A DNA stretch of 64,000 nt, taken from positions 240,994,001-241,058,000 of the forward strand of contig OZ024742.1 of the NCBI GenBank assembly GCA_964016885.1. The letters run 5' to 3'. A program made the translations under genes and the position numbers. The notes below the pieces were generated by a model. That model had not been told where the DNA came from and ran no database searches. It saw only the letters and a list, made by a program, of their open reading frames with translations. Source of the stretch: Eledone cirrhosa (taxonomy: Eukaryota). Of the stretch, positions 20,166 through 63,884 are shown in pieces (the first letter of the stretch is position 1; each line of letters starts with the position of its first letter).

Positions 20166-20240
<75 letters not shown>
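20141..20240. repeat. (TCTA)n microsatellite, 5' flank of the LINE stack
   Basis: About 25 TCTA units. Confidence 0.95.
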
Positions 20241-20473
20241 TAAATCTAGCTGTCGTCTGTTCGATAGCGTAGACGCAATTCACTTCGCGCAGAAGTTTTG
20301 TTCCAATTTATTGCGGAAATTTTGTAAGTTTAATTTTAATTTTGATACTATTGTGTAGCTTGACCCCCCGTCTGAACTGTCAGGCGGTGGGTCAGCTCAT
20401 TTTCGCCCCTCCCAGGGGTGAAAAACCTATTTTAAAAAATTTTGTTGCATAAAATTTCAATCGTCTGGCAGAA

Positions 20474-22378
20474 ATGTTAAACGAAGCTAACGAAAATAGT
20501 GGTGGGGGGACAGCGGTAAGAGTTGTAAGCTCGCACGCTTTAGTCCCCCCTTCCTTCCCAACTAACGTCATAGAGAAGGAAAGAAAAAATAAAATAAAAA
20601 CAGACGAATGTGCGGAGAAAAATGACGAAAACACAAATCTGGAGATTGATTCCAACAACAAAAAAAATTTGAAAGAATTGCATGACAATGTTAATACCAC
20701 AAACAAAGAAACAACAAACACAAAAATAACATTTGAAAACAACATCATAACAGAAAGCAAAACAGACGACAAAGTCAACACCAATAATATCTCATTTGCA
20801 CAAACAACAAAAACATCTTTAACATATATACCTGAAAATATTTCAGATGTGGCACAAAGAATAAAAAAACGCCAAACAATTCATAACTCAAGGGGAAAAT
20901 GGAACCTTATCGGTAAAAATGCCCCAAGAACTCACCAAAGATATTGAAAGTCGGACGGTCGTTTTCCGCACCATCAACAGCATCTAAAAAAAACCTCAAC
21001 AACCAACACAAGCAGAAATTAAAGCAGTACTTAGAGAAGTACTTAATGAAGCCACTTTCATAAGAAGAGACAGGCTGTATGGAAGCCTAGCCATTATTAT
21101 GAAGAACGAATCAGCGGCAAAAAAATATGCTTTGTCGCCGATTCGTTCGACGAATTTTACCTTTTATCCATCTTATATGGGTAAAAGAACTCAACGCATA
21201 TGGCTGGATGCGATGATGCCAGGTATGGACTACTGCTGGCTCATAGCTGGCTTCATCGATCCAGCGAATGACAACGTGATTTCCATTGGGAAAACCACAG
21301 GCAATGCGTTCAGTGGAACAGGTATAGAACTTGTAGTGCAAATGAAGCCTGAACGCATTGCCCAAATACCCGACAGAATCCTATTAGAGGGCCACGGGTA
21401 TATAAACATTAGCGTGGAGGTGAGAAGGCCGTCCTGTCATATCTGTGCAGGCAGAGGGCACCTGAAGGCGGCTTGTCCCCAACTCAACAAGAAGAAAACC
21501 CTGCTACCAACACCAGCTCCACCACCACCACAACAGATAAACAAACAACAAAACTCAGTCCCACCAAACCCGTCCCTCAGTAAAACTACACCACCACCAC
21601 AACATAAACAGTCACAACACATTACCCCAAAACAAAACACAGTCCCACCCAACTCCTCACTCAATAAAACAACACAACCACCGCAGCCACAACACACAAC
21701 ACAGTCTAACATAGTGACATCCATCTCCCCCACAAAGAAAACCAACACGGAAACATTACCAGCAAACATACCTCTTCCCTCCAACACTGAAGATAACCCA
21801 ACGAATTCGGAGGAAGAAACGGCGTCCTTCAGACAGATTAAAAGGAAAAAAAGAAAACATGTGCAAAACACACAAGGCCAAACAGCCCCTACCCAAATGT
21901 CAACACAATCCAACAAAACACAAAACACCCCTCCAGCAACAAACAAAACCAAACCTGCCCCTCCCCTCTTCGAAACACTCACACCATCCGAAAAAAAGAC
22001 ATTACACTATACTTACATCAACAGAAACAATAATAAATTAAATGAACTCATAAACAATAATCCTTCGGTACAAACCGAAGGGGTAAACTTTGTTTTTTCA
22101 GAAAACTACCCACATTTAAAATTAATAAAGATCCCAATGAACCTCTACCAAAAACTAAAAAAGGATTTTAAGGAGGACGTAGGACCACCCTCTGTCACCC
22201 ATAAACCGCGTCCTCCTAAAAAGCTTTCCCCCTCCTCTTCCCCTCCCCCAACACAACTCCAAACACCCCAACCCCACCACACACTGACGACCCCATACCA
22301 CCACAAGACACCCCTTCACCCAACACCCCCGACCCCATGGAAGTCGTGCGACCCGAACCCCGGGAAGTAGAAAGGTAG
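20474..22378 (+). pseudogene. ORF1 (gag-like) of copy A, frameshifted
   Basis: CHICAGRGHLKAAC zinc knuckle, Pro/Thr/Gln-rich linker, RQIKRKKRKH. Homologous to intact ORF1 at 61655-63490. Broken near 20940-21000 and ~22210. Confidence 0.85.
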
Positions 22379-22411
22379 GTCTCTACACTCTCCTTTGGCT
22401 TTGCCGCCCAC

Positions 22412-25400
22412 ATAGATGTGTTAAGAGTAGGATGTTTGAATGCACGTGGCCTGGGCTCAACTTGGAAGCAAGCAAAGCTTCTAAATGACCTCAGGTCACG
22501 TGGTATAAATGTAATGGTTATCTGTGAGACTCGGATCAGCGTCGTGCGGCAGCTGGCCCCTACCTTCGATGACTTTGAGGTGCATGCATCTCTCTGTCAA
22601 CCTGGAGGTGGGGGTAGGGTTGTCGTACTGCTGGAAAAACACCTGGGTCTCGCCGTACAGGTTATTCACTCGGACCCGGAAGGTCGTTTGTTGGTGCTAG
22701 ACGTTGGCAGTAGTAGAGGTGCGGCCTTGAGACTGGTCGCCGTCTACTCCCCTTTCGGAGCAGAACGACCCGACTTCTTCCAGCTTCTGGAGACTTTTCT
22801 GGGAACGTCGCGTTTCCTGCTTCTAGTGGGGGATTGGAATGACATCCTAGATGCACGTTGGAACTATGCAGGAGCATGTCCTAATAGAGGGGGGGGGGGG
22901 TGTAACAGCCTCAAGAGGTTACTCGACCGTTTTAACTTGGTCGATAGATATCGACTAGATTTTCCAACTGTGCCAACCTGGACTTGGACGAACCACAGTG
23001 GTCAATCTAGATCGTACTTAGATAGATTCTTAGTTCGAAGTAAGGATAGGGACATATTAAGCTGTCCAGAAATGCTCACCGTTGGCTATACAGATCACAA
23101 ATTAGTGACCTGCGTAGTCAATCTCGAGAAAACACATAGACAGGGTCCCGGTTACTGGAAACTTAATTTGTCTTTACCGGCAAAAGAGGCTTACAGAAAC
23201 CGGATTAGCAGATTAGTTAAAGAGAGGTTGACGGGTGCAATCGTCAACAACCGATGGTGGGCATCTCTCAAAAGAGAGATTAGAACAGAATCAATAAGTT
23301 ATAGCAAGATGTTAGCTGCCGATAGGAATAGGAACGAGAAAGAATTAACAGGTAAATTAGAAGAGGCAATCAAGAGCGAAGATGTGGCCAGAGTGCTGGC
23401 ATCGAGGATGGCCTTGAGCCAGTTTTTCGATGCAAAGCACGAAGGTTGCGTCATTCGAAGTAAAATACGTGCTCTAGGTAATGAGGAGGCCAAAGCCGTT
23501 GGCTGGGCCCGCCTGACAGAAGCTAAGAGTGGATATCGATCCACCATCCGGTCTTTGCAAGACGAGGATGGACGGGTGATCCGGGAGCCTAAGCAGATGT
23601 GCGAGGCCTTTCAAAGGCACTTTGCCTGATTGTTCGGGGGAGGCGAGGGTCCGGGCGGGGACGTGGATTTCGGTCCATACCTCGACGGCCTGCCGCGTCT
23701 CTCGAGCGAAGAGGCAGAGTCCTGCGAGGGACCAATCTCGGCTGATGAAATCGGGGATGCGCTGAGCCAATGCAGCAGACGCAAATCTCCAGGTCTCGAT
23801 GGTATACCTTACGAAATTTATTTAGCAATGCCGGTCTTCTTCTCCGAACTCCTCGAAGCGGTCTACTGCAATTGGCAGCAGAACGGGAGAATTCCTTGTT
23901 CTGTAGCCAAGGGCGTAGTCTCGCTGGTGAGGTAGGACGAGAACAAGGGGGATAGTATAAATAATTTTCGGCCCATAACTCTGCTAAACACAGAGTTAAA
24001 GATTTTGGCCAAGGTGTTAGCAAAGAGGTTGGCGCTTGTAGGTGGGTGGCCTGTTGGGAGATGCGCAGGTCCATTCACGACAACCTCCACCTCATGCGAT
24101 ACATCATAGAGAGGGTTGGCAACAAACTCGGCTTCGGTGGGGCCCTGATCAACTTGGATCAGTCTAAGGCGTTCGATAGGGTCGACCATGGTGCTAGCGG
24201 CGGCTGGGTTCGGTCCTGTTTTCAGAGGCTGGATCACTGCCTTACATAGCAACCACATCTGTTCTAGGATCAAGGTGAACGGCTACCTTTCGAAGCCGTT
24301 CGAAATCACACGATCCATTCGACAGGGGTGCCCTCTCTCCTCCCTACTGTACGTATTGACTCTCGAGCCTTTACTGAGGAAGTTGGAGTTGTTGCACGGT
24401 ATCCCCCTGGAACCAGGATTGAGCAAAGCGGTGTCGGCCTACGCCGATGACGTAAAAGTAATGGTATCGACCGACTCGGAGATCGAGGCGATCGGTACCT
24501 TACTGGAGGAATACGAAAGGTTGTCAGAAGTGAAACTGAACCGGGAAAAATCCATCGGGCTGCAACTCGGAACGTGGAGAGGCAGACCGATGCCTCCCGA
24601 CGGTGTCGTCCGACTCTGGACGGAGGGCCCGGTGAAGTTGCTTGGGGTCTGGTTTGGACCGGACTTCCAGGTGGAAAAGAACTGGGGCGAGGTTACGAAC
24701 AAGGTGTTTGCACTAACCCAGAAATGGGCCAAGTGTAAGCTGTCCCTAAAAGGTCGGGCGGAGGTGGCGAACATTTACATAGCGTCCGTCACCTACTACC
24801 GCCTGACTGTCGTGCCTTGCCCTAAGGAAACACTCACCACCATGGAACGCATGCTCTTTCAATTTCTTTGGAAGAAGCGCCCTCCTATGGTGAGAAGATC
24901 CATCTGCTGCCAACAACCTTCGAAAGGAGGGCTGGGGATGCCGTGGGTGATGATGCGTAGGCACGCATTAAGGCTACGGCACCTACAGGTATTCCTCACT
25001 GGTCAACCGGTGTGGGCTCCGTTCGTGAAACGAGCCTTTCCGAGACTCGTCTCGCTCACCGAGCTGCAGTCCTGGGTCAAGCAAAGATCCGGAAAACTGG
25101 GCGACTGGCACACTGAGTGTGCCCAGGCGCTCAGGGCTCTCTGGCAAGCGGACCCGGCCATCGGTGGAGAATCCACCTCGTCATTCTATAGAGGGCTGGT
25201 GGCTAGCAGGGGCGATGACACCCTTGAAGAGTCGCTGGACATGGAGGAGGACGAACTGCCCAGCCTGTTCGGTAGGACTTTCGGCCCGGGACCAATGGAC
25301 AACTTCCAGAAGTCACTGGCCTGGCAGTGCTACCGGGAGGCTCTACCCGTTCGAGAAAAGCTCTACAGACACGGGCGCCCGGGCAGGGATCCCTCGAAAA

Positions 25401-25822
25401 AGATTTGCCCTAGATGCGTGCGTCACGAAGAAACCGTTGCGCACGCATTGGTGCACTGTCCGGGCGTGGCTGATCTGCGTGGCTACGCCGAACCACTGTT
25501 GTCGCGGGTGGCGCCGATTCGATTGACCGCCGAGTCCGAGATGACAATCAAACCGCCTCCCCTCTTCACAAAGGAAGCAAAGGCGGTTTTTCTGTGCGTA
25601 ATAGCCATGTTGAAAGAGGTTGTTTGGTGGACACGATTGAAAGGTCTGAGGTCAGGCAACTTCCTCTCTGGCCATAGTCTGGTCTATTTCTTCCGATATT
25701 ACTTCGGAAGAAGGATAAGAATGGAGAGAGAGGTGCTTGGCCACAGGCAGTTTTATGAAAGGTGGGTGATAGTGGCGAGAATGGCTCGTATAAATGAGCC
25801 TTCTCTGTATACCATCCTGTAG
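22412..25822 (+). pseudogene. ORF2 of copy A (APE endonuclease, RT, C-terminal CCHC), with stops and frameshifts
   Basis: CLNARG, GDWN, SYLDRF, TDH, SPGLDG, DQSKAFD, RQGCPLS, YADD, CPRC..EETVAHALVHC. Stops at 23627 and 23933, frameshifts at ~24050-24190. Confidence 0.92.
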
Positions 25823-26039
25823 GTAAAGAAGTGAAGGAGAGGGGAGCACCTTCTCCATGTGCTCCCTGGGCAAAGGATTGCACACTTTTTCGGGTGTGTG
25901 TGCAACCCCCATCACGTCCCCTCCCTTTTGAGGTTGTTTTTGATTATTTTCATTTTATACCCTTTTTACTCGGTTTTATGTAAACTCCCCCTTTGTATTT
26001 GTCCCTTCTTTTTATACCTTTATGGTAAATAAAGAAATA

Positions 26040-26126
<87 letters not shown>

Positions 26127-26144
26127 CTATATATCTATCTATCT

Positions 26145-26597
26145 ATGGCGAAAGAGGTTGTATGGTGGACAAGTTTGAAAGGGCTGAGGTCAGACACCTT
26201 TCTCTCCGGCCAACAACTGATTCTTTTTTTCAAATACCACTTTGGAAGAAGAATCAGGATGGAGAGAGAGGTGCTGTACCCCAGCAAGTTTTATGAAAGG
26301 TGGGTGAAAGTGGCGAGAATGGCCCGAGTGAATGGGCCTTCTCTCTATATCAGCCTGTAGGTTGAGGGAAAGGAGGAGGAGAGGAAAGGAGTACAAACTC
26401 TTCGTACTCCTGGAGATGAGGGTTGCACATTTTTTCGGGGGTATGTGTTACCCATATGAACTGCCTCCCCCTATTGGGGAAAATCGACTAATTTTTTAAA
26501 TTGCATTTGTGATATTTTACACGTTTTTATTGTATGTAACCCCCCCCCCTTTGTATTTGCCCCCTTCTTTTGTGCCCCTGTGGCTAATAAAGGAATA
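26145..26597 (+). mobile_element. Tx1-clade LINE copy B, 5'-truncated (~450 bp)
   Basis: ORF2 C-terminus MAKEVVWWT...GPSLYISL* plus 3'UTR and AATAAA, between (TCTA)n tracts. Confidence 0.9.
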
Positions 26598-26630
26598 TAT
26601 CTATCTATCTACCTATCTATCTATCTATCT

Positions 26631-29600
26631 AAAAAAATTCCCCCACCCCCTCCCCAAAGACCCACACAACTACAAACACCCCAACCACACAACACACTGA
26701 TGCCCCCACACTTCCACAAACCACCACCCCACCCAACAACCCATCCACCACCCTCATAGAAATTGTGCAGCCCGATATTCGGGACGCAGAGAGGTAAGTG
26801 CTTTTCTCTTCACCACCAACATGGCTATGCTGAGAGTAGGTTGTCTAAATGCGCGTGGTCTGGGCTCAACTTGGAAGCAAGCAATGCTTCTAAATGACCC
26901 CAGGTCACAACGTATAGATGTGATGGTTATTTGCGAGGCCCGGATCAGCAACGTGCGACAGCTGGCCCCCACCTTTGATGACTTTGAGATGCACGCATCT
27001 CTCTGTCAGCCCGGAGGTGGGGGTGGGGTTGTCGTTCTGCTGCAAAACATCTGGGTCTCGCAACACAGACGGTACATTTGGACCCGGAGGGTCGACTAGT
27101 GGTTCTGGAACTTGGCAGTGGTGAAGGCGGAGCGTTTAGGCTGGTAGCCGTCTACGGCCCTTTCGGGTCAACGCGGCCGGACTTCTTCCATCGTCTGGAG
27201 ACTTTTATAGGGACGTCCCGCTCCTTGCTATTAGTGGGGGACAGTAATGGTATCTTAGATGCACGTTGGGACTACGTAGGGGCCTGTCCCGATAGAGAGG
27301 GGTGTAACAGTCTCAAAGGGTTAATCGGCCGATTTGACCTGGCCGATAAATATCGACTAGATTTTCCGACTGCGCCAACCTAGACTAGATAGGTTCTTAG
27401 TTAGAAATAAGGATAAGGACTTTTTAAGTTGTCCAAAAATGCTCATGGTTGGCTATTAAGACCACAAGTTAGTGACCTGCATGGTCTACCTTGACAGAAC
27501 GCATAGACAGGTACCGGTTACTGGAAGCTCAACTTATCCTTACCGGCAAATAAAGCTTACAGGGACCGGATTAGCACTTTAGTTAAGGAGCGGTTGACGA
27601 GCGCCATCGTCAACAGCAGGTGGTAGGGATCTCTCAAAAGAGAGATTAGAGTAGTCTCTATAGAATTTAGTAAAGTGTTAGCCTCAAATAGAAATAGGAA
27701 GGAAAGGGAGTTGGTAGATAGTGTAGGAGAGGCAATTAGAAGCGGCGACGTAGCCAGAGTGCTAGCGTCGAGAACGGCCCTGGGCCAGTTCTTCGACGCG
27801 AAACATGAAGGCTGCATCGTCCGAAGCAAAATACGTGCTCTGGGAAACGAGGGGACCAAAGCTGTTAGCTGGGCCCGCGTGACAGAAGCCAAAAGAGGGA
27901 GCAGATCCACTATCCGGTCTTTGCGAGACCAGGAAGGACGGGTAATACTTGAACCTAAGCAGATGTGCGAGGCTTTTCAAAAGCACTTTGCCAGATTGTT
28001 CGGAAGGAACGGGGAGCCGGTTGGGGAAGTGGACTACGGTCCATACCTCGACGCCCTACGGCGTCTCTCGGACAAGGAGGCGGAGTCCTGCGAGGAGCCG
28101 ATTTCAGCCGCTGAGATAGAGTGCTGAGCCAATGCGGCCAATGCAAATCCCCGGGTCTCGATGGTCTTCCATACGAACTATATCTAGCTATGCAGGACTT
28201 GTTCCCCGATTTTCTCGAGGTGATCTACTGCAACTGGCAACAGAACGGGAGAATTCTCTGTGCTGTGACCAAGGGCGTAGTCACGCTAGTGAGGAAGGAC
28301 GAGAACAAGGGGGACGATATAAATAATTTCAGGCCCATAACTTTGCTAAATACAGAGTTACAGATGTTGGCCAAGGTGCTAGCAAAGAGGTTGGCGCTTG
28401 TCGTGGGCAACCTGGTGGGGGATGCGCAGACATGTGGTATCCCGTCTAGGTCCATCCACGACAACCTTCACCTCATGCGATACATCATAGAGAGGGTTGG
28501 GAACGAACCCGGCTTTGGTGGGGCCCTGATCAACTTGGATCAATCTAAAGCGCTCGATAGGGTCGACCATGGTTACCTCGATGCGGTGCTAGCGGCGGCA
28601 GGCTTCGGACCCGTTTTCAGGGGCTGGGTCACTGCCATGCACAGCAGCCGCATCTGCTCTAGGGTCAAGGTGAACGGACCTCTCGGAGCCGTTCGAAATC
28701 GCGCGGTCCATCCGACAACGGTGCCCTCTCTCCCCCCTTTTGTATGTAACGACTCTAGAGCCACTGCTGCGGAAGTTGGAGTTGTACAGGGCATCCCGTT
28801 GGAACCGGGATTGCGGAAAGCGGTGTCGGCCTACGCCGATGACGTAACAGTAATGGTGTCGACGACCTCGGCAGTCGGGGCGATCGGCACCTTACTGGAG
28901 GAGTACAGTGGCTAAGCTTAACCGGGACAAGTCGATCGGTCTGCAACTCGGCACGTGGAGGGGCAAATCGATGCCCTCCGATGGCGTCGTCGGGCGCTGG
29001 ACGGAGGGCCCGGTGAAGTTGCTCGGGGTCTGGTTCGGAACAGATCTCCAGGTGGAGATGAACTGGGGTGAGGTAACGAACAGGGTGTTTGCACTGACCC
29101 AGAAGTGGGCCGAGTGCAAATTGTCTCTGAAAGGTCGGGCGGAGGTGGCGAACACTTATATAGCGTCCGTCATCTACTACCGCCTGACCGTTGTGCCTTG
29201 CCCAAGGGAAAGGCTCGCCAAAATGGAGCGCGCACTCTTCCAATTCCTTTGGAAGAATCGGGCTCCTATGGTGAGGAGATCGATCTGCTGTCAACACCCT
29301 TCGAAAGGAGGGCTGGGGATGCCGTGTCTGATGATGCGTAAACACACATTAAGGCTACGGCACCTCCTGGTATTCCTCACCGGTCAACCGGTGTGGGCCC
29401 TGTTTGTGAGGCGAGCCTTTCCCAGACTCGTCTCGCTCACCGAGCTGCAATCTTGGGTCAAGCAAAGACCGAGAAAACTGGGCGCCTGGAACACCGAGTG
29501 TGCTCAGGCGCTCACGGCTCTCTGTCAGGCGGACCCGGCTGTCAGTGGAGAATCCACCTCGTCATTCTATAGAGGGCTGGTGGTTACCAGGTGCGACGAC

Positions 29601-30453
29601 GCCCTCGGAGAAGCCCTAGGCATGGAGGAAAACGGACTGGCCAACCTGTTCGGTAGGACATTCAGCCCGGCACCTATGGATAACTTCCAGAGGTCCCAGG
29701 CCTGGCAGTGCTACCGAGGGGCTCTGCCCGTTCGAGAAAGACTCTACAGACACGGGCGCCCGGGTAGGGACCCCTCGAAGAAGATCTCTCCCAGATGCGG
29801 GTGCGACGAGGAACCCGTTGCGCACACATTGGTACACTGCTCGGGCATTGCCTATCTGTTGGGCTATGTCGAACGACTGGTGTCACGGGTGGGGCTGATC
29901 CGGTTGACCACCGAGTCTATTGTAACGATCAAGCTGCCTCCCCTCTTCAAAAACGAAGGAGAGGCGGGGTTTCTGTGCGTAATAGCCATGGCGAAAGAGG
30001 TTGTATGGTGGACGCGTCTGAAAGGACTGAGGTCAGACACCTTTCTCTCTGGCCAACAACTGGTCCGTTTCTTCCGATATCATTTCGGAGAGAGAGGTGC
30101 TGCACCCTAGCTGTTTTTATGAAAGATGGGTGAAAGTGGCCAGAATGGCCCGTGTGAATGGGCCTTCACTCTACATCAGACTGTAGTTGAGAAAGATGAA
30201 AGATCAAGGGAGCACCCTCTCTCTGTGCTACTGAGGAGAAGGGTTGCACACTTTTTCGGGGGTGTGTGCGACCCCCCAAGGCGCCTCCTCCCTATTGAGG
30301 ATTTTGTTATTCAATTTATTTTTCTTATATTTTATATCTTATATTTTTATATTTTGTTATTGCCTCCTCCTTATTGAGGACGCCTTTTTATGTAAACGCC
30401 CCCCATTGTATATGTCCCACTCTTTGACGACCTGGTGGTAAATAAAAAGAAAG

Positions 30454-30454
<1 letters not shown>
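26631..30454 (+). mobile_element. Tx1-clade LINE copy C, 5'-truncated within the ORF1 end, decayed ORF2 (26821-30186)
   Basis: ORF2 starts MAMLRVGCLNARG and has many stops, frameshifts and small deletions. 3'UTR with AATAAA, (TCTA)n flanks. Confidence 0.92.
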
Positions 30455-30497
<43 letters not shown>

Positions 30498-30875
30498 ATT
30501 CTTTTTTTCAAATACCACTTTGGAAGAAGAGTCAGGATGGAGAGAGAGGTGCTGTACCCCAGCAAGTTTTATGAAAGGTGGGTGAAAGTGGCGAGAATGG
30601 CCCGAGTGAATGGGCCTTCTCTCTATATCAGCCTGTAGGTTGAGGAAAAGGAGGAGGAGAGGAAAGGAGTACAAGCTCTTCGTACTCCTGGAGATGAGGG
30701 TTGCACATTTTTTTTCGGGGGTATGTGTTACCCATATAAACTGTCTCCCTCTATTGGGGAAAATCGACTAACTTTTAAATTCCATCTGTGATAACATTTT
30801 ACACGTTTTTATTGTATGTAAACTTCCCCCTTTGTATTTGTCCCCTTCTTTTGTGCCCCTGTGGCTAATAAAGAA

Positions 30876-30876
<1 letters not shown>
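30498..30876 (+). mobile_element. Tx1-clade LINE copy D, 5'-truncated, same subfamily as B
   Basis: Nearly identical to 26220-26597, with (TCTA)n flanks. Confidence 0.9.
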
Positions 30877-30912
<36 letters not shown>

Positions 30913-35078: not shown

Positions 35079-36098
35079 CATTTTTCATTATACTTAATTG
35101 CAACAACACAGCTCGCCATTTTGATTCATATATATATATATATATATATATAAATATAGTTATATTTGGGGAGGGTCATATTTGTGTAATATTGCCAGAA
35201 TTAATAACAGAACACACTCACTGTTTGGTTGGTTTTCGCTTTTCGCTTCTGTGTCTTTTATATCGGTAATCTAATTTATTCGGTCTTCAATGTTGCCATT
35301 GACTGACCAACGGTCAAAAATAATACTGATACAATATAGACACAAACACATATATAGTTTATCAATGTTCTTTCGTTGCACATCTGCAACATCGTCAGTG
35401 GTGCTATTGTTTCCTCCCGTTGCATTGTATTTTCTACGCCATCTTTATTTAGTCTGTTTATATATTTATTTATTTGTTTATTTTATTTTGTCTTCTTTGC
35501 GCATGCGTTTGCGTGTGTGTATAGTGTTTTGTTTGATGTGTGTTCGTGATTGGGTGACTGTGTATTGGTTAATGTATTCTATCTTTACTAGTGTGTGTTT
35601 ATATGTGTTTGTTGTTATTGTGCTTGTGTATGTATTTATTTATTTATTTATCTATTTATTTATTTATACTTCTCTTAGGTCAGTGTTGTTTGTTTGGGTG
35701 TTGTTATTCCATTCATTCTTTCTGTTTAGCCTTGGCCTTCTAAGTTCTATTTCACTGGCCTCTATGATTTGCCTATCTGCTGGGTCATTTCTATGTTTAG
35801 ATATTATTCTAATTTCTATGTTGTCTATGTTACCGTCGTGTTGTCTGGCATGTTCGTATAGTACTGAACCGTTTTTTCGTCCTTTTAGTTCCCCCCAGTG
35901 TTGGTCTATCCTTTCACCTATGCTACGAACTGTCTCGCCTATGTATGTTGTTGTCATGTTTTTGCAAGTACCCTCTGTACATCTTATGCTATAGACTACG
36001 TTTCTAGTTTTACAGTTTATCCGGGGGTTTACCTTACATATGATACATTTCCTATTAGTAAAGTGGGTTCTCTTAAAAGGGTAGGTTTTGCTGATCAG

Positions 36099-36578
36099 AT
36101 TAAGGTGGTAGAAAAGCCAGGAACCACCATAAAATCCCTGATCTGCAAAACCTACCCTTTTAAGAAAACCCACTGTACTAATAGGAAATGTATCATATGT
36201 AAGGTAAACCCCCGTATAAACTGTAAAACTAGAAACGTAGTCTATAGCATAAGATGTACAGAAGGTACTTGCAGAAACATGACAACAACATACATAGGCG
36301 AGACAGCTCGTAGCATAGGTGAAAGGATAGACCAACACTGGGGGGAACTAAAAGGACGAAAAAACGGTTCAGTACTATACGAACATGCCAGACAACAACA
36401 CGACGGTAACATAGACAACATAGAAATTAGAATAATATCTAAACATAGAAATGACCCAGCAGATAGGCAAATCATAGAGGCCAGTGAAATAGAACTTAGA
36501 AGGCCAAGGCTAAACAGAAAGAATGAATGGAATAACAACAACACCCAAACAAACAACACTGACCTAAGAGAAGTATAA
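36099..36578 (+). pseudogene. PLE linker + GIY-YIG endonuclease C-terminal fragment (mirror copy 35664-36098 on - strand)
   Basis: IKVVEKPGTTIKSLI..C...CIIC......CKTRNVVYSIRC....C.....YIGETARSIGERIDQH...RQIIEASEI....P.LNRKNEW. Confidence 0.88.
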
Positions 36579-36841
36579 ATAAATAAATAGATAAATAAAT
36601 AAATAAATACATACACAAGCACAATAACAACAAACACATATAAACACACACTAGTAAAGATAGAATACATTAACCAATACACAGTCACCCAATCACGAAC
36701 ACACATCAAACAAAACACTATACACACACGCAAACGCATGCGCAAAGAAGACAAAATAAAATAAACAAATAAATAAATATATAAACAGACTAAATAAAGA
36801 TGGCGTAGAAAATACAATGCAACGGGAGGAAACAATAGCAC

Positions 36842-36880
36842 CACTGACGATGTTGCAGATGTGCAACGAAAGAACTTTGA
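36842..36880 (+). ncRNA. Hammerhead-like motif in the pLTR (mirror at ~35362-35400)
   Basis: CUGACGA, stem II gttgca-gatg-tgcaac, GAAA. Stems I and III are weak. Confidence 0.55.
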
Positions 36881-37213
36881 TAAACTATATATATGTGTTT
36901 GTGTCTATATTGTATCTGTATTATTTTTGACCGTTGGTCAGTCAATGGCAACATTGAGGACCGAGTAAGTTAGATTACCGATATAAAAGACACAGAAGCG
37001 AGAAGCAAAAACCAACCAAACAGTGAGTGTGTTCTGTTATTAATTCTGGCAATATTACACAAATATGACCCTCCCCAAGTATAACTATATTTGTTTCGAC
37101 ACACGATTTCATATAAAAAACCTCGCAAAACTATATATATATATATATATATATAAAGAAGTCGGTGGAGAAACAGAAGGACATGTAAACAGACATACGT
37201 GTATATAGATGTA

Positions 37214-57710: not shown

Positions 57711-58220
57711 ATGTTGGAAGATCGTTAATTTAAAAAGGAGCATTTTAAAAGAATGGTTTTGTTCCACAGGTAGTTTTGGGCAGGTTCATATCAAAATAGT
57801 TAATTGATATCGATACACAAAATTCTTATCCGTCCGTGATGACCGGTTATTGATTGAAACTGTTTAAGAAGTTGATTGATAATAACTCTTTCAATCACAA
57901 GAAAGAAAGATAGATAGATAGAGAGATAGATAGAGAGATAGATAGAGAGATAGATAGAGAGATAGAGAGATAGATAGATAGATAGATAAATTTCTATTTA
58001 TTTGCCACGAGGGCACAAAAGAAGGGGACATTTACACAGTGGGGGAGTTTACATAAATCGAGTAAAGAAAAAAGGAATAACAATAATAATATAACAATAA
58101 AAAGTCCTCAAAAGGGAGGGGGCGTGTTGGGGATTGCACATACCCCCGAAAAGTGTGCAACTCTTTTCGCGGGGGAAGCCCAGAGAGGAGGCGCTCCCCC
58201 TTTCCTCTTCACTTCTTCAC

Positions 58221-61200
58221 CTACAGAACAATGTAGAGAGAAGGCCCATTTACACGGGCCTTTCTCGCTTCTTTCACCCACCTTTCATAAAACTGTCTGG
58301 GACCAAGCACTTCTCTCTCCATCCTGATTCTTCTTCCGAAGTGGTATCGGAAGAAGTAAACCAGGTGATGGCCGGAGAGAAAGTCACCCGACCTCAGACC
58401 TTTCAGGCGCGTCCACCACACAACCTCTTTCATCATGGCTATTACGCACAGAAAGACCGCCTCTGCTTCATTTCTGAAGGGAGGAGGCGGCTTGATGTTC
58501 ACCACAGACTCGGCGGTTAATCGAATCGGCGCCACACGCGACAGCAGTCGTTCGACGTAGCCCCACAGATCGGCAACGCCCGGGCAGTGTACCAGTGCAT
58601 GCGCAACGGTTTCCTCGTCGCGCACGCATCTGGGACAGATCTTTTTCGCGGGATCCCTGCCCGGGCGCCCGTGTCTGTAGAGCTTTTCTCGAACGGGCAG
58701 AGCCCCCCGGTAACACTGCCAGGCTAGGGACCTCTGGAAGTTGTCCATGGGTCCCGGGCCGAAAGTTCTACCGAACAGGCTGGCCAGTTCGTCCTCCTCC
58801 ATGCCTAGCGACTCTCCAAGGGTGTCGTCGCCCCTGCTAGCCACCAACCCTCTATAGAATGTCGAGGTGGATTCTCCACTGACAGTCGGGTCCGCTTGCC
58901 AGATAGCCGTGAGCGCCTGGGCACACTCAGTGTGCCAGTTGCCCAGTTTTCTCGGTCTTTGCTTCACCCAGGATTGCAGTTCGGTGAGCGAGACGAGCTG
59001 TGGGAAGGCTCGCCTCACAAACGGGGCCCACACCGGCTGACCGTTGAGGAATACCTGTAGATGCCGTAGCCTCAATGCGTGCCTACGCACCAACAGCCAC
59101 GGCATACCCAGCCCTCCTTTCGAAGGGTGCTGGCAGCAGATGGATCTCCTCACCATGGGAGGCTGCTTCTTCCAGAGGAACTGGAAGAGCATGCGTTCCA
59201 TGATGGTGAGCTTTTCCTTGGGGCAAGGCACGACGGTCAGGCGGTAGTAGATGACGGACGCTATGTAAGCGTTCGTCACCTCCGCCCGACCTTTCAGTGA
59301 TAGTTTGCACTTGGCCCACTTCTGGGTCAGCGCAAATACCCTGCTCGTCACCTCGCCCCAATTCTTCTCCACCTGGAGGTCCGGTCCGAACCAGACCCCG
59401 AGCAGCTTCACCGGGCCCTCCGTCCACCGCCCGACGACACCGTCTAACGGCATCGGTTTGCCCCTCCACGTTCCGAGTTGCAAACCGACTGACTTGTCCT
59501 GGTTCAGCTTAGCCCCCGTCAGCCTTTCGTATTCCTCCAGTAGGGTGGCGATCGCCCCGATTTCCGAGGCGTCCGCCACCATTACTGTTACGTCGTCGGC
59601 ATAGGCCGAGACCGCTTTGTGCAATCCCGGTTCCAGGGGTATGCCCCGCAGCAACTCCAACTTCCGCAGCAGTGGCTCGAGAGTCAATACGTACAGAAGG
59701 GAGGAGAGGGGGCACCCCTGTCTGATGGATCGGGTGATTTGAAACGGCTCCGAGAGGTAGCCGTTTACTTTAATCCTAGAGTAGATGTTGCCACTGTGCA
59801 TGGCAGAAATCCAGCCCCTGAAAACGGGTCCGAAGCCCGCCGCCGCTAGCACCGCATCCAGGTAACCATGGTCGACCCTATCGAACGCCTTAGATTGATC
59901 CAAGTTGATCAGGGCCCCACCAAAGCCGGGTTCGTAGCCAACCCTCTCTATGATGTATCGCATGAGGTGGAGGTTGTCGTGAATGGACCTGGACGGGATA
60001 GCGCATGTCTGCGCGTCTCCCACCAAACCACCCACCACAAGCGCCAACCTCTTCGCCAACACCTTGGCCAAAATCTGTAACTCTGCATTCAGCAGAGTTA
60101 TGGGCCTAAAGTTACTTAAGTCGTCCCCCTTGCTCTCGTCCTTCCTCACTAGCGTGACCACGCCCTTGGTCACAGAACAGGGAATTCTCCCGTTCTGTTG
60201 CCAGTTGCAATAGACAGCCTCGAGGAGTTCGGAGAACAAGACCGGCATAGCTAAATAAAGTTCGTATGGTAGACCATCGAGACCCGGGGATTTGCGTCTG
60301 CTGCATTGGCTGAGCGCTTCCCCGATTTCAGTGGCTGTGATTGGCCCTTCGCAGCACTCCGCTTCGCCGCTCGAAAGACGCGGTAGACCGTCGAGGTATG
60401 GACCGAAGTCCACATCCCCGTCCGGCCCCCCGCCACCTCCGAACAGTCGAGCAAAGTGCCTTTGAAAGGTCTCGCACATTCGCTCAGGTTCAAGGATCAC
60501 CCGTCCATCCTGGTCTCGCAAAGACCGAATGGTGGATTTAATCCCACTCTTGGCTTCTGTCACGCGGGCCCAGCTAACAGCTTTGGTCCCCACGTTTCCT
60601 AAAGCACGTATTTTACTTCGGACAACGCAGCCTTCGTGCTTCGCGTCAAAGAACTGGCTCAATGCCGTTCTCGTCGCTAACACTCTGGCTACGTCTCCGC
60701 TCCTAATCGCCTCTTCTAGTTTATCTGTTAACTCCCTTTCCCTCCTATTTCTATTCGCCGCTAGTTCCTTACTGTAACCTATCGAACTTACTCTAATCTC
60801 TCTCTTTAGAGATATCCACCACCTACTGTTGACGATCGCTCCCGTCAACCGCATCTTAACTAAGCTACTAATCCGGTTTCTGTAATCTTTCTTTGTCGGT
60901 AAGGACAAGTTCATCTTCCAGTAACCGGGACCCTGTCTATGCGTTCTATCAAGGTTGACCACGCAGGTCACTAATTTGTGATCTGAATAGCCAACCATGA
61001 TCAGTTCTGGACAACTAAATACGTCCCTATCCTTACTCCTAACCAAAAACCTATCTAGGTACGATCTAGATTGTCCACTGCGGTTTGCCCAGGTCCAGGT
61101 TGGCGCAGTTGGACAATCTAGTCGAAATCTATCGACCAGGTCGAATCGATCGAGTAACCCCTTGAGGCTGCTACACCCCCCTCTATCGGGACATGCCCCT

Positions 61201-61649
61201 GCATAGTCCCAACGTGCATCTAGGATTCCATTCCAGTCCCCCACTAAAAGCAGGGAACGCGACGTTCCTAGAAAAGTCTCCAGACGTTGGAAGAAGTCGG
61301 CTCTCTCCGCCCCGAAGGGAGCATAAAGACCGACCAGTCTGAAAGCCCCGCCTTCACCACCTCCGACGTCCAGCACCAGTAATCGACCCCCCGGGTCCGA
61401 GTGAACAATCTGTACGTCGAGAGTCAGACGTTTATCCAGCAGTACGGCAACTCCCCCCCCGCCTCCGGGTTGACAGAGAGATGCGTGCATCTCAAAGTCA
61501 TCGAAGGCGGGCGCCAGCTGTCTCACGCTGCTGATCCGACTCTCGCAAACAACCATCACATCTATACTTTGTAACCTGAGGTCACTTAGAAGCTTTGCTT
61601 GCTTCCAAGCTGAGCTCAGGCCACGCGCGTTCAAACAGCCAACTCTCAA
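58221..61649 (-). CDS. ORF2p: AP-like endonuclease, reverse transcriptase, C-terminal CCHC finger (1142 aa, no AUG at the start)
   Basis: CLNARG, CE, GDWN, SYLDRF, SDH; GPGYWK; SPGLDG, FRPITLLN, DQSKAFD, RQGCPLS, YADD; CPRC..EETVAHALVHC. L1/Tx1-type architecture. Confidence 0.95.
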   Translation of the reverse strand: MRVGCLNARGLSSAWKQAKLLSDLRLQSIDVMVVCESRISSVRQLAPAFDDFEMHASLCQPGGGGGVAVLLDKRLTLDVQIVHSDPGGRLLVLDVGGGEGGAFRLVGLYAPFGAERADFFQRLETFLGTSRSLLLVGDWNGILDARWDYAGACPDRGGCSSLKGLLDRFDLVDRFRLDCPTAPTWTWANRSGQSRSYLDRFLVRSKDRDVFSCPELIMVGYSDHKLVTCVVNLDRTHRQGPGYWKMNLSLPTKKDYRNRISSLVKMRLTGAIVNSRWWISLKREIRVSSIGYSKELAANRNRRERELTDKLEEAIRSGDVARVLATRTALSQFFDAKHEGCVVRSKIRALGNVGTKAVSWARVTEAKSGIKSTIRSLRDQDGRVILEPERMCETFQRHFARLFGGGGGPDGDVDFGPYLDGLPRLSSGEAECCEGPITATEIGEALSQCSRRKSPGLDGLPYELYLAMPVLFSELLEAVYCNWQQNGRIPCSVTKGVVTLVRKDESKGDDLSNFRPITLLNAELQILAKVLAKRLALVVGGLVGDAQTCAIPSRSIHDNLHLMRYIIERVGYEPGFGGALINLDQSKAFDRVDHGYLDAVLAAAGFGPVFRGWISAMHSGNIYSRIKVNGYLSEPFQITRSIRQGCPLSSLLYVLTLEPLLRKLELLRGIPLEPGLHKAVSAYADDVTVMVADASEIGAIATLLEEYERLTGAKLNQDKSVGLQLGTWRGKPMPLDGVVGRWTEGPVKLLGVWFGPDLQVEKNWGEVTSRVFALTQKWAKCKLSLKGRAEVTNAYIASVIYYRLTVVPCPKEKLTIMERMLFQFLWKKQPPMVRRSICCQHPSKGGLGMPWLLVRRHALRLRHLQVFLNGQPVWAPFVRRAFPQLVSLTELQSWVKQRPRKLGNWHTECAQALTAIWQADPTVSGESTSTFYRGLVASRGDDTLGESLGMEEDELASLFGRTFGPGPMDNFQRSLAWQCYRGALPVREKLYRHGRPGRDPAKKICPRCVRDEETVAHALVHCPGVADLWGYVERLLSRVAPIRLTAESVVNIKPPPPFRNEAEAVFLCVIAMMKEVVWWTRLKGLRSGDFLSGHHLVYFFRYHFGRRIRMEREVLGPRQFYERWVKEARKARVNGPSLYIVL

Positions 61650-61654
61650 TTGAT

Positions 61655-63490
61655 CTATTTTGGTGTTGAAAGTGAAGAAAGAAAAGTACTTACCTCTCCG
61701 GGTTGCGTAATTTCCATGGCATCAGGTGTGTTGGGTGGAGGGATGTTTTGTGGTGGTGTGGGGGTACACGTGTGTGGTGGGGTTGGGGTATTTGGAGTTG
61801 TGTCAGGGAGAGGGGCGGTTATGGGGAAATCTTTCAAGAGGACGCGATTCAACGGTTTTAAACAGGGGGGGCTCACGTCCCGTCTGAATTGTTCTTTTAA
61901 GGAACGATAAAGGTCCAGAGGGACCTTTATCATTTTTAAATGGGTGAAGTTCTCTGTTGAGATAAAGTTTGGCCCTTCGGTCTGCACCATAGGGTTATTG
62001 TTTATTAATTTAACCAGTTTTTTGTTTTCTTTATTTATATATGTGTATTGCAACGTCTTTTTTTGTGATGCTGTCAATGTTTCGGAGAGGGGAGGCGCAG
62101 ATTTATTTTTGTTTGTTGAGGGTGGGGTGTTTTTGATTGGAGTTGGTATTTGTGTGTGGGTTATTTGTGGTGTGCTGGGTGTGTGTTTTCTTTTTTTTCT
62201 TTTAACTTGTCTGAAGGCTTCTCCTCCTTCTTCTTCAGAAGTTGGGGGAAACTCTTCAGCGCTAGGTGGGAGGGACGTGTTGTGTGGTTGTTTTTTTTTT
62301 GCGGGAGGGGTAGATTTGTTACTGTTTTTTCTATTATTTGTTTGGAATGGGTTTTGTGGTGGTGGTGGTGGTAATGTTTGTGTCGTGCTTGTGGTTGGTG
62401 ATGGTGGTGGTGATGTTTGTGTTGTGGTTGGTGGTGGTGATTTTTGTGTCGTGCTTGTGTTTGGTGCTGGTGGTGGTGATGTTTGTGTTGTGTTTGTGGT
62501 TGGTGGTGTCTGTATTTTGTTTGCTGTGTGTGGTATTAGTGTATTTTTGGAGGTGGGTGGTGCTGGTGTACTGTTTGTGGTGGGTGTGGGCAATAGTCCT
62601 TTTTGGGGGATACGTTTCGGGCAGTTAGCCTTAACGTGTCCCCTTTCCATGCATAAATAGCATGCTGGTCTTCTCCCCTCTACAATTATGTCTATTGGGG
62701 TAAGGTCATCCAGCCAGATGCGATCCGGGATTTGTGCTATTCTTTCGGGCCTCATTTGGACTAGTATGTCGAGGCCCATTCCCAGGAACGCATCTCCAGT
62801 TGCCTTCCCCATTGACAGCATAGTGTCTTCGCCCATATCAATGAAGCCAGCAATAGCCCACCAGAAGTCCATTGTGGGCAGCATTGTTTTTACTTTTACT
62901 CTCTGTGTTCTTCTACCCATGTAGGAGGGATAGAAGCTATATGTTGTCGACGAGAGTGGGCTTAGGGAAAGCTTCTCCGCCGTTTCTTTGTCTCTTGTTA
63001 GGACCGAAATGCTGCCATAGAGTCGGTCCTTTCGTATGAAGAGAATATTCTTCATATAGTCTTTTAGGACTAACTCTATTTCCATTTGGCTGGGCTGTGC
63101 TGGCTTTCTTGTCTGGTTCAGTATAGTTCTGTATATAACTGTGTTTTCTGCTCTGGCTTTCTTGAATTCTGGGGGGGAGTTAATGGAAAACATTCCGTTC
63201 TCCCCCAAAACAATATGTTTCTTTGCTTCGGCCAGTTTTTCTCTGGCGGCAGTTAGGTCAATTGGTGTGTATGTAATGGATTGCTTTGTTTTCTGGGCGA
63301 AAGTTGCCCTGTCGTTATTTGTATTATTTTCTGTTTGTTTGTTTTCTGTTTGCTCATTTTCCTTAACATTTGTTTTTTCATTTTGTTTGTTTGTTTCAAT
63401 GTCTAATTTTGTTGTAATTATTTTTTGTTCTTCAGACTTGGGGGGCGTGGCAGAGCTAATGGCAGACATGTCTGCCATCTTTTCCGCCAT
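61655..63490 (-). CDS. ORF1p: gag-like nucleic-acid-binding protein with one CCHC knuckle (611 aa from the AUG at 63490)
   Basis: CYLCMERGHVKANC, Pro/Thr-rich linker, RQVKRKKRKH. Homologous to copy A ORF1. Confidence 0.9.
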   Translation of the reverse strand: MAEKMADMSAISSATPPKSEEQKIITTKLDIETNKQNEKTNVKENEQTENKQTENNTNNDRATFAQKTKQSITYTPIDLTAAREKLAEAKKHIVLGENGMFSINSPPEFKKARAENTVIYRTILNQTRKPAQPSQMEIELVLKDYMKNILFIRKDRLYGSISVLTRDKETAEKLSLSPLSSTTYSFYPSYMGRRTQRVKVKTMLPTMDFWWAIAGFIDMGEDTMLSMGKATGDAFLGMGLDILVQMRPERIAQIPDRIWLDDLTPIDIIVEGRRPACYLCMERGHVKANCPKRIPQKGLLPTPTTNSTPAPPTSKNTLIPHTANKIQTPPTTNTTQTSPPPAPNTSTTQKSPPPTTTQTSPPPSPTTSTTQTLPPPPPQNPFQTNNRKNSNKSTPPAKKKQPHNTSLPPSAEEFPPTSEEEGGEAFRQVKRKKRKHTPSTPQITHTQIPTPIKNTPPSTNKNKSAPPLSETLTASQKKTLQYTYINKENKKLVKLINNNPMVQTEGPNFISTENFTHLKMIKVPLDLYRSLKEQFRRDVSPPCLKPLNRVLLKDFPITAPLPDTTPNTPTPPHTCTPTPPQNIPPPNTPDAMEITQPGEVSTFLSSLSTPK

Positions 63491-63491
63491 G

Positions 63492-63630
63492 CTGCCAAGA
63501 AAGAAATTTTTCGGCAAAAATAAATATTTATTTTACCCCCTAAAAAGGGGGTAAATGCAAAAATGTTTCCCTAAATAACAGGGGTTAGTGTTCCAAATGT
63601 GTTGCACTAAAAAATTTATCCGGTACTTAC
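63492..63630 (-). promoter_or_regulatory. Putative 139-nt 5'UTR intron of LINE copy E (counterpart 20324-20471 in copy A)
   Basis: TT|GTAAGT donor and tttctttcttggCAG|cATG acceptor. Copy A has TT|GTAAGT and tcgtctggCAG|aaATG. Confidence 0.6.
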
Positions 63631-63884
63631 AATAGTAAGGGTAAATCCCGATGGAATAGCGGAGCCGATGCGAAGCGTGTCTTACTCTATCAAGATAGAG
63701 AGATAGATAGAGAGATAGATAGAGAGATAGAGAGATAGATAGAGAGATAGAGAGATAGATAGATAGATAGAGAGAGAGAGAGTATTCGTGTTACAATGAC
63801 CACCATCAATATGAATTGATAAATATATACATAATTACGTATAAATCATATCTATATATGTATGTATATATATATATGTATATA

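What the first reader, a model, noticed from the sequence alone, without database searches (positions are those of the whole stretch)
58221..61693. ORF2 appears to lie entirely inside an intron: donor at the ORF1 end, acceptor = ORF2 stop codon
All three copies that retain the ORF1/ORF2 junction have a strong 5' splice site 27-45 nt before ORF2, in otherwise divergent sequence: AG|GTAGGT (A, 22375), AG|GTAAGT (C, 26794) and AG|GTAAGT (E, 61693 on -). All five copies end ORF2 in a pyrimidine-rich tract plus CTGTAG| (ccttctctctacattgttctgTAG|G in E; 25822, 26360, 30186, 30638, 58221). Joining them removes ~3.4-3.5 kb and closes ORF1 at once: E ...GE|VKK*, A ...ER* (same as unspliced), C ...ES*. 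This predicts an ORF1-only subgenomic mRNA that keeps the 3'UTR. The logic is that of spliced gag mRNAs in copia-type LTR elements, which I do not know as a built-in feature of LINEs. With the 5'UTR intron this would be a two-intron switch between ORF1 mRNA and genomic RNA, and could also spawn ORF2-less non-autonomous copies.
Basis: partly seen in the sequence, partly recalled or inferred. Interest (0 to 1): 0.85.

Follow-up and report, generated by a model that had tools for sequence, protein, structure and literature searches.

The report
RNA clasp loops out LINE ORF2
In this abundant family of LINE retrotransposons, the sequences at the two ends of the reverse-transcriptase gene are complementary and change together across subfamilies, so they are predicted to form one long RNA helix that buries a conserved splice-donor motif and likely controls how the element's RNA is translated and kept intact; the proposed removal of the whole gene by splicing remains untested.

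Summary
The element is a Tx1-like LINE that inserts in microsatellites. The donor motif is a real nucleotide signal: top-scoring GT in 11 of 11 elements, kept in three ORF1 reading phases and with all three stop codons.

The acceptor is weak. Its pyrimidine tract is no better than synonymous recoding and has no branch-point match in 16 of 18. A sister family with about 3,500 donor-bearing copies ends ORF2 in TAA. No ORF2-less genomic copy was found, and no run on record as RNA was available.

New finding: the ORF1 end, donor, spacer and ORF2 start are complementary to the ORF2 end, stop and 3'UTR start. The predicted helix has 43-63 bp in 18 representatives and is the best partner window in 17 of 18. 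It is family-specific (0 of 20,000 permutations) and has two-sided changes, one beside TAG-G to TAA-A. This explains the conserved 'CTGTAG|G' without splicing. The helix likely folds the 3' end back onto the ORF1 stop, gates ORF2 and masks the donor. The ORF1-only spliced mRNA stays possible (about 30%).

The parts
57990..63693 (-). Copy E: full-length Tx1-like LINE between (TCTA)n arrays; ends approximate
   Evidence: 360 copies carry the same ORF1-end motif; the 30 best matches align to E over the ORF1/ORF2 junction at about 99% (29) or 95-99% in two pieces (1)
63571..63630 (-). Predicted 60-nt 5'UTR intron (GTAAGT, CTAAC branch match, TTTAG); retained in genomic copies
   Evidence: no intron-less E copy found
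61655..63490 (-). ORF1, 611 aa, one CCHC knuckle, Pro/Thr-rich middle; in E it reads through the donor and stops at a TAG overlapping the first ORF2 codon
61688..61696 (-). Conserved 5' splice-site motif GAG|GTAAGT, first intron base 61693
61647..61706 (-). 5' strand of the predicted long-range helix: last ORF1-side bases, donor, pyrimidine spacer, first ORF2 codons
58221..61658 (-). ORF2 (APE endonuclease, RT, zf-RVT); in family E it begins ATA with no in-frame ATG before the endonuclease motif
58174..58232 (-).
57990..58220 (-). 3'UTR with local hairpins, U-rich tract and AATAAA at 58002-57997
22372..22380 (+). Copy A donor motif AAG|GTAGGT containing the ORF1 stop
25797..25880 (+). Copy A ORF2 end, TAG (25822) and 3'UTR start (3' strand in family A)
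26791..26799 (+). Copy C donor motif GAG|GTAAGT containing the ORF1 stop
30161..30245 (+). Copy C ORF2 end, TAG (30186) and 3'UTR start
26148..26600 (+). 5'-truncated B-type 3' fragment (stop ends 26360); a second at about 30500-30880 (stop ends 30638)

Best explanation
The two sites lie in two stretches, one at each end of ORF2, that are complementary and co-vary across subfamilies, and are predicted to form a long-range RNA helix that likely folds the 3' end of the full-length RNA back onto the ORF1 stop, hiding the ORF2 start, the splice-donor motif and the 3'UTR hairpin until ribosomes open it. Shown from sequence: the complementarity (43-63 predicted bp), its fixed register at the ORF2 start and stop, its family specificity, and an independently conserved U1-type donor inside the 5' strand. 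Inferred, step by step: (1) once the 3'UTR is transcribed the helix forms and masks both the donor and the stop-codon AG, so the unspliced RNA survives as the retrotransposition template; (2) it places the ORF1 stop about 200 nt instead of 3.6 kb from the poly(A) end, which would protect the bicistronic RNA from nonsense-mediated decay; (3) a ribosome finishing ORF1, whose stop lies in the 5' strand, would unwind it and expose the ORF2 start for reinitiation, keeping ORF2p scarce; (4) opening would release the 3'UTR to refold into its local hairpin for the new ORF2p in cis. Before the helix forms the donor likely binds U1, and a minority of transcripts may splice to whichever acceptor the family offers; that need not be the ORF2 stop.
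For: Cognate window at the ORF2 stop is the best partner among about 560 windows per element (368 for the internally deleted H copy) in 17 of 18 representatives, against 0 of 8 distant metagenome relatives. Purine/pyrimidine-preserving shuffles of the 3' strand are beaten at P<=0.05 in 15 of 18. Own-family pairing beats cross-family permutations in 0 of 20,000 draws for 18 representatives and for an 11-lineage subset, after local structure is subtracted for 13 representatives (mean gain -28.8 vs -17.0 kcal/mol), and for each of three segments taken alone. Ten core pairs are 88% canonical against 24-41% in shifted registers. Two-sided changes occur at four of them (C-G to T-A and G-C to A-T in G; C-G to A-T in E and A and to T-A in J; A-T to G-C in F1 and F3), two of these pairs inside coding sequence at both ORF2 ends. 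The G change next to TAG-G to TAA-A keeps a pair while losing the AG. Donor evidence. Fold-back suppression of NMD: PMC2689704 abstract. Structure-dependent ORF2 reinitiation in SART1 and L1: PMC5972666 passages.
Against: All structure evidence is computed; nothing was probed. The windows were widened after a first pass in which the cognate 3'UTR ranked first in only 5 of 18 rows, so window choice is partly after the fact. Whole-RNA minimum-energy folds contain the helix in 2 of 4 elements (I, D), not in window copy E or in G1. Margins over the next window are under 3 kcal/mol in A, C1, D, F1, F2 and B4, and B3 ranks second. The spacer segment alone beats purine/pyrimidine-preserving shuffles in only 3 of 18. 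The 18 representatives are related and several are decayed copies. Pair -4 is broken in G1 and G2 and pair +3 in E. No functional step (NMD, reinitiation, cis release, splice masking) has direct evidence here.
Confidence: 0.55

Rival explanations
1. One reading: the donor is joined to the ORF2 stop AG and gives an abundant ORF1-only mRNA with the native 3'UTR, as in copia elements; the helix would then be the regulator of that intron. This is not exclusive of the best explanation.
For: Strong conserved donor. The stop AG is the best acceptor of 269 in E and third of 108 conserved AGs. 16,133 ends have TAG against 6,026 TAA/TGA. A stop follows the join within 1 codon in 8 of 18 cognate frames against 6 of 36 other frames, including phase-1 families F and B1. 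The purine-rich 3'UTR start resembles an exonic enhancer (recalled). The 5'UTR intron is also never seen removed in E copies, so missing spliced copies are weak evidence.
Against: G has the donor and no AG at the stop. The tract is explained by codons. No YTRAY branch match in 16 of 18. The other 9 of 18 joins would add at least 15 residues. No spliced copy: E 0 against 360 unspliced; C/B2 0 of 27 deviants among 1,517; A 0 of 24 deviants; D 0 of 1; B1/B4/I 0; G 0 of 60 read out of 124 deviants.
Confidence: 0.3
2. The donor is used, but with other partners or without splicing: it joins internal or 3'UTR acceptors, or bound U1 suppresses early polyadenylation, as shown for the copia element EVD.
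For: Other acceptors score as well or better: +1823 is conserved in 7 of 7 families and +397 in 6 of 7; a site about 250 nt before the ORF2 end ranks first in F1, F2 and G, and G has a strong 3'UTR CAG. U1 repression of premature termination: PMC5580714 passages.
Against: AATAAA in ORF1 is at chance level and not aligned, and ORF2 has none in 6 of 7 families. No C/B2 genomic copy is joined to any other acceptor (27 of 27 deviants read were point or small changes). It does not explain the helix.
Confidence: 0.25
3. The complementarity is a by-product: a C/T-rich spacer and a G/A-rich 3'UTR pair by composition, or an old inverted duplication is kept alike by template switching, with no RNA function.
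For: The spacer segment alone rarely beats purine/pyrimidine-preserving shuffles (3 of 18). The helix is missing from 2 of 4 whole-RNA folds.
Against: Family-specific pairing in all three segments, fixed register with two-sided changes that alter amino acids at both ORF2 ends, and persistence between families at about 50% four-fold identity.
Confidence: 0.08

Closest known systems
Tx1-clade non-LTR retrotransposons that target microsatellites (Kibi, Koshi, crocodilian Tx1; PMC4494074 passages)
   Same: Two ORFs, APE endonuclease plus RT plus zf-RVT; best solved-structure match is human L1 ORF2p; inserted in simple repeats.
   Different: Targets are (TCTA)n (A-E) or (TTA)n (G) rather than (TC)n, (TTC)n or (TTCC)n. 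The donor and helix were not seen in distant relatives at about 30-35% identity. Clade placement by tree was not tested.
Ty1/copia spliced gag mRNA (EVD shGAG; PMC5580714 passages)
   Same: A conserved U1 site at the end of the structural-protein ORF; the unspliced RNA is the genomic template.
   Different: Copia is an LTR element with one polyprotein frame and needs the splice to make a stop. Here ORF1 has its own stop, the acceptor is not conserved as an acceptor, and splicing is not shown.
Human L1 splicing and SpIREs (PMC5860796 abstract and Introduction)
   Same: Splice sites inside an L1-group element, including a 5'UTR donor.
   Different: SpIREs are 5'UTR or 5'UTR/ORF1 events found as genomic copies. 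Here the donor is at the ORF1 stop and no spliced copy was found.
Termination-reinitiation of LINE ORF2 (SART1, mammalian L1; PMC5972666 passages)
   Same: ORF2 follows ORF1 after a short spacer or an overlapping stop and start (family E); RNA structure is implicated.
   Different: The structures described in those passages lie downstream of the stop-restart site or within ORF2; here the partner is the ORF2 stop and 3'UTR, 3.4 kb away.
Fold-back suppression of nonsense-mediated decay (PMC2689704 abstract)
   Same: Base pairing would bring the poly(A) end close to an upstream stop codon.
   Different: [quoted passage not shown]
LINE 3'UTR stem-loop recognised by RT (PMC5135761 abstract)
   Same: A local hairpin lies just after the ORF2 stop.
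   Different: Here that hairpin competes with the long-range helix; RT binding to it is untested.

Membership tests
Tx1 clade (L1 group) LINE | ORF2 with APE endonuclease, RT and C-terminal Cys/His region | tested here: met
   PF03372 and PF00078 above cutoff, PF13966 just below cutoff; L1 ORF2p best PDB match, E 3e-48
Tx1 clade (L1 group) LINE | ORF1 with CCHC zinc knuckle | tested here: inconclusive
   CX2CX4HX4C visible in all five aligned ORF1s; Pfam zf-CCHC E 0.0086, below cutoff
Tx1 clade (L1 group) LINE | Target preference for a repeat such as a microsatellite | tested here: met
   Flanks are (TCTA)n in the window copies and many loci, (TTA)n for G; read by eye, not counted
Tx1 clade (L1 group) LINE | RT phylogeny groups with named Tx1 families | not tested
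   No named Tx1 reference sequences were fetched
Spliceosomal intron spanning ORF2 | U1-type 5' splice site | tested here: met
   Rank 1 in 11 of 11; three phases and three stop codons
Spliceosomal intron spanning ORF2 | Conserved terminal AG | tested here: not met
   Present in A-F and H-J, absent in G: 6,026 TAA/TGA ends, 97 of the first 100 listed of G type
Spliceosomal intron spanning ORF2 | Polypyrimidine tract beyond codon expectation and a branch point | tested here: not met
   Synonymous null P 0.05-0.92; YTRAY match in 2 of 18
Spliceosomal intron spanning ORF2 | Junction present in RNA | not testable with these tools
   No RNA holder listed
Copia-type spliced gag strategy | LTR element in which the splice creates the gag stop | tested here: not met
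   Non-LTR element; ORF1 stops without splicing
Functional long-range RNA helix | Conserved register with compensatory changes | tested here: met
Functional long-range RNA helix | Contact and effect shown in RNA | not testable with these tools
   Needs structure probing and compensatory mutants

The most novel reading that the evidence does not exclude
This LINE lineage uses one long-range helix as a master switch. With the helix closed the RNA is unspliced, shielded from decay and yields ORF2p only by reinitiation; if U1 wins before it closes, all of ORF2 is spliced out to give an ORF1-only mRNA whose last codons still pair with the 3'UTR and keep it from being reverse-transcribed. That would be a retrovirus-like genomic/subgenomic split built into a non-LTR element and would explain why thousands of copies include no ORF2-less one.
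Probability: 0.25. Interest if true: 0.88.

Novelty: new variant of a known kind. Interest (0 to 1): 0.72.

Why it matters
How bicistronic LINE RNAs translate ORF2, escape decay despite a stop codon 3.6 kb from the poly(A) end, and hand ORF2p to their own 3' end are open questions. [quoted passage not shown] My full-text searches listed no paper whose title or abstract start describes such a helix or an ORF2-spanning intron in a LINE. The library holds only openly licensed papers and preprints, and repeat databases were not available.

Tried and rejected
RNA evidence: no RNA holder listed. Four runs of unrecorded kind from one study were laid on part of copy E. No joint between the donor and the stop is among the 15 joints shown (210 not shown). 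In run X4 single contigs bridge the donor and the stop unspliced. X4 shows greater depth on one ORF1 contig than on ORF2 contigs, but contig depth cannot rank parts and its kind is unknown. None of this is used as evidence.

Spliced ORF1 protein in databases: no ORF1 relative found by word search, and the ORF1 sequences are not in the collection. The profile-free search gave only distant relatives.

Short in-frame intron fusing ORF1 to ORF2 at the Leu-Arg AG: rejected. It would be only about 40-60 nt, out of frame in E, F and B1, and family I has CGA there.

In-frame readthrough of the ORF1 stop: rejected, since spacer length and frame vary.

Donor as a by-product of Arg plus stop: rejected, since the motif persists in phases 0, 1 and 2.

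Conserved poly(A) signal in ORF1 guarded by the donor: AATAAA counts match chance and do not align.

Broad junction pattern: 5 hits, by the listed text four 5'-truncated insertions and one unrelated. It misses 3'UTRs with six T, so it was replaced by family-specific searches. Families F, H and J were not searched for spliced copies. Copy totals were not counted for A, D, B1, B4 or I. For E and G, exon starts other than those were not searched.

A genome-wide count of the ORF2 start codon in family E was not done; that point rests on the fetched copies only. Earlier scan notes: nothing returned.
Full report
What the element is. Copy E (about 63693 to 57990, minus strand) is a full-length non-LTR retrotransposon between (TCTA)n arrays, with a 611-aa ORF1 and an open ORF2 carrying endonuclease, RT and zf-RVT matches. 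Its best solved-structure match is human L1 ORF2p. Domain order and microsatellite targeting fit the Tx1 clade as described in PMC4494074 (passages); I built no tree with named references. The lineage is large in this 3-Gb genome: 5,575 matches to one endonuclease-start pattern and 16,133 plus 6,026 ORF2 ends. I fetched 100 genome stretches and sorted them into families that I label A to J (my labels). Among seven intact representatives, ORF2 identity is 66-85% in protein and 49-77% at four-fold sites, except C1/C2 at 96% and 94%.

The observation. All eight sites are at the stated coordinates. Two details are private to window copies: the T after copy C's stop and the ATA start of copy A.

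The donor is a real signal. With a recalled metazoan weight table it is the best of 274-351 GT sites in 11 of 11 representatives. In 30 loci picked by a distant protein query it ranks first in 22, second in 6 and has decayed in 2. It appears as GTAAGT, GTAGGT, GTGAGT or GTAATT, holding an ORF1 stop TAA, TAG or TGA in most families. It sits in phase 2 in most, phase 1 in F and B1, and phase 0 in E, where ORF1 reads through it. Only 72 of 266 four-fold sites are invariant across seven families, so six invariant motif positions are not expected from drift. In 11 distant metagenome relatives with an ORF2 start it is not the top site (ranks 2-85), so it belongs to this lineage.

The acceptor is weak. 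The stop AG ranks first of 269 in E, 6th-24th in nine other representatives, and is absent in G. Family G ends ORF2 with TAA yet has 3,490 copies with the donor exon end. The pyrimidine tract is no stronger than synonymous recoding of the same peptide (P 0.05-0.92 in six TAG families). A YTRAY branch match is present in 2 of 18, whereas E's 5'UTR intron has CTAAC. In favour: the site is third of 108 AGs conserved in at least six of seven families, and a join would close ORF1 within one codon in 8 of 18 cognate frames against 6 of 36 other frames; nine of 18 would add at least 15 residues.

No ORF2-less copy was found. E: 0 against 360 unspliced (five hits were four point mutants and one unrelated). 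C/B2 types: 1,503 plus 14 copies, all 27 deviants read, none spliced. A: 24 of 24 deviants read, none. D: 1 of 1. B1/B4/I: 0 matches. G: 60 of 124 deviants read, none joined to a 3' end. F, H and J were not searched. This weighs little: an RNA without ORF2 lacks the cis preference described for L1 (PMC5860796 Introduction), and the 5'UTR intron is also never missing in E copies. RNA could not be examined.

The new feature. Reading the junctions, I noticed that the pyrimidine spacer starting at the donor is complementary to the purine run after the ORF2 stop. A first test with narrow windows was mixed: the cognate 3'UTR ranked first in 5 of 18 rows, though the best partner windows clustered at the ORF2 stop. 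I then widened the windows, so the following tests are partly after the fact. The 59 nt around the ORF2 start pair best with the window at the ORF2 stop among about 560 windows per element in 17 of 18 representatives, with thin margins in six; none of 8 distant relatives does so, although two of those have broken frames. The full predicted helix has 43-63 bp and -49 to -80 kcal/mol, and runs from the last ORF1 codons across the donor and spacer into the first ORF2 codons, paired with the last ORF2 codons, the stop and 50-65 nt of 3'UTR. After subtracting local folds the gain is -11 to -40 kcal/mol. Shuffles that keep the purine/pyrimidine pattern are beaten in 15 of 18. Own-family pairing beats permuted families in 0 of 20,000 draws overall and for each of three segments alone, although the spacer segment beats its own shuffles in only 3 of 18. 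Ten core pairs anchored on the start and stop codons are 88% canonical against 24-41% when shifted, with two-sided changes at four pairs; two of those pairs lie in coding sequence and change amino acids at both ends of ORF2 together. In G the C-G pair just past the stop becomes T-A, so pairing is kept where the AG is lost; the neighbouring pair is broken. Whole-RNA folding recovers the helix in 2 of 4 elements, not in copy E. In E the strands are 61706-61647 and 58232-58174.

How it most likely works. Shown: complementarity, register, family specificity, and a U1-type motif inside the 5' strand, with 4-7 of its 9 positions paired in the 17 intact donors. Inferred: the helix closes the full-length RNA after the 3'UTR is made, masks the donor and the stop AG, and puts the ORF1 stop about 200 nt from the poly(A) signal. 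Fold-back of this kind suppresses nonsense-mediated decay in human cells (PMC2689704 abstract). The ORF1 stop lies in the 5' strand, often in an internal loop, so a terminating ribosome would open the helix and expose the ORF2 start; structure-dependent reinitiation is reported for SART1 and proposed for L1 (PMC5972666 passages). Family E fits this: its ORF1 runs through the whole spacer and stops on the first ORF2 codon, which is ATA in all 30 young copies read. The 3' strand competes with a local 3'UTR hairpin, the kind of element that stringent LINE RTs recognise (PMC5135761 abstract), so opening could release it in cis. Pairing does not explain why the donor stays U1-like while its partner varies, so U1 binding is likely real. 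Whether it splices, and to what, is open; in the copia element EVD U1 both splices and blocks early termination (PMC5580714 passages).

Comparison and novelty. It works like a fold-back or panhandle and resembles the copia strategy only if splicing is shown. Known L1 splicing concerns the 5'UTR and ORF1 start (PMC5860796), TART introns are in antisense RNA (PMC1636488 passages), and a recent Arabidopsis atlas notes many LINE isoforms without this structure in the passages read (PMC13547354). Searches listed nothing describing a helix between the two ends of a LINE ORF2; I saw only listings for most hits, and no supplements. ORF1-only 'half-L1' elements and a 5'UTR intron in a zebrafish LINE are recalled, not read.

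Verdict. Observation confirmed; interpretation partly supported. The element is a new family of a known kind. The conserved long-range helix enclosing ORF2 and burying a conserved donor is the notable result (about 0.85 that it is selected; 0.55 for the mechanism as stated; 0.3 for the ORF1-only spliced mRNA). Interest 0.72.

Noticed in passing
window 61655-61658 (-); loci L001-L030: Family E (360 copies with the ORF1-end motif, about 99% alike) has no ATG before the endonuclease motif: ORF2 begins ATA, overlapping the ORF1 stop, in 30 of 30 copies read, while the other families have ATG in a CAAC/CCAC-ATG context. A natural candidate for non-AUG reinitiation or a -1 slip.
   Followed up: partly
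window 63571-63630 (-) and 5'UTRs of loci L071-L110, L221-L240: Unrelated 5'UTR types in A-F carry GTRAGT within about 110 nt of the 5' end, several with CTAAC/TTAAC/TTGAC before an AG; G types have weaker donors. Genomic E copies keep the intron.
   Followed up: partly
loci L084, L092, L100, L102, L103, L144, L153, L221-L233: 5'UTR/ORF1 swaps and mosaics: the same 5'UTR type sits on E-like and B-like ORF2s, G has two 5'UTR types, L144 has a C1 junction with a C2 3' end, L153 an F junction with a G 3' end.
   Followed up: no
loci L161-L190, L236: Families G and H share a strong acceptor-like tract ending in CAG about 150-160 nt into the 3'UTR; in H a CTAAC, pyrimidine tract and TAG lie just before the ORF2 ATG.
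   Followed up: partly
window 20240-30900: Cluster of five insertions of different families in one (TCTA)n region; head-to-tail copies about 5.7-6 kb apart are common elsewhere in the genome.
   Followed up: no
L330, L331: Two distant relatives have AG|GTAATG with a stop followed by a pyrimidine-rich spacer before ORF2 (rank 6-9 of about 470), a faint echo of the donor.
   Followed up: partly
window 3595-4872, 35275-36904: An RT-like frame followed by a GIY-YIG-like region, and an inverted pair of GIY-YIG-like fragments, suggest Penelope-like elements (by eye; label recalled).
   Followed up: no
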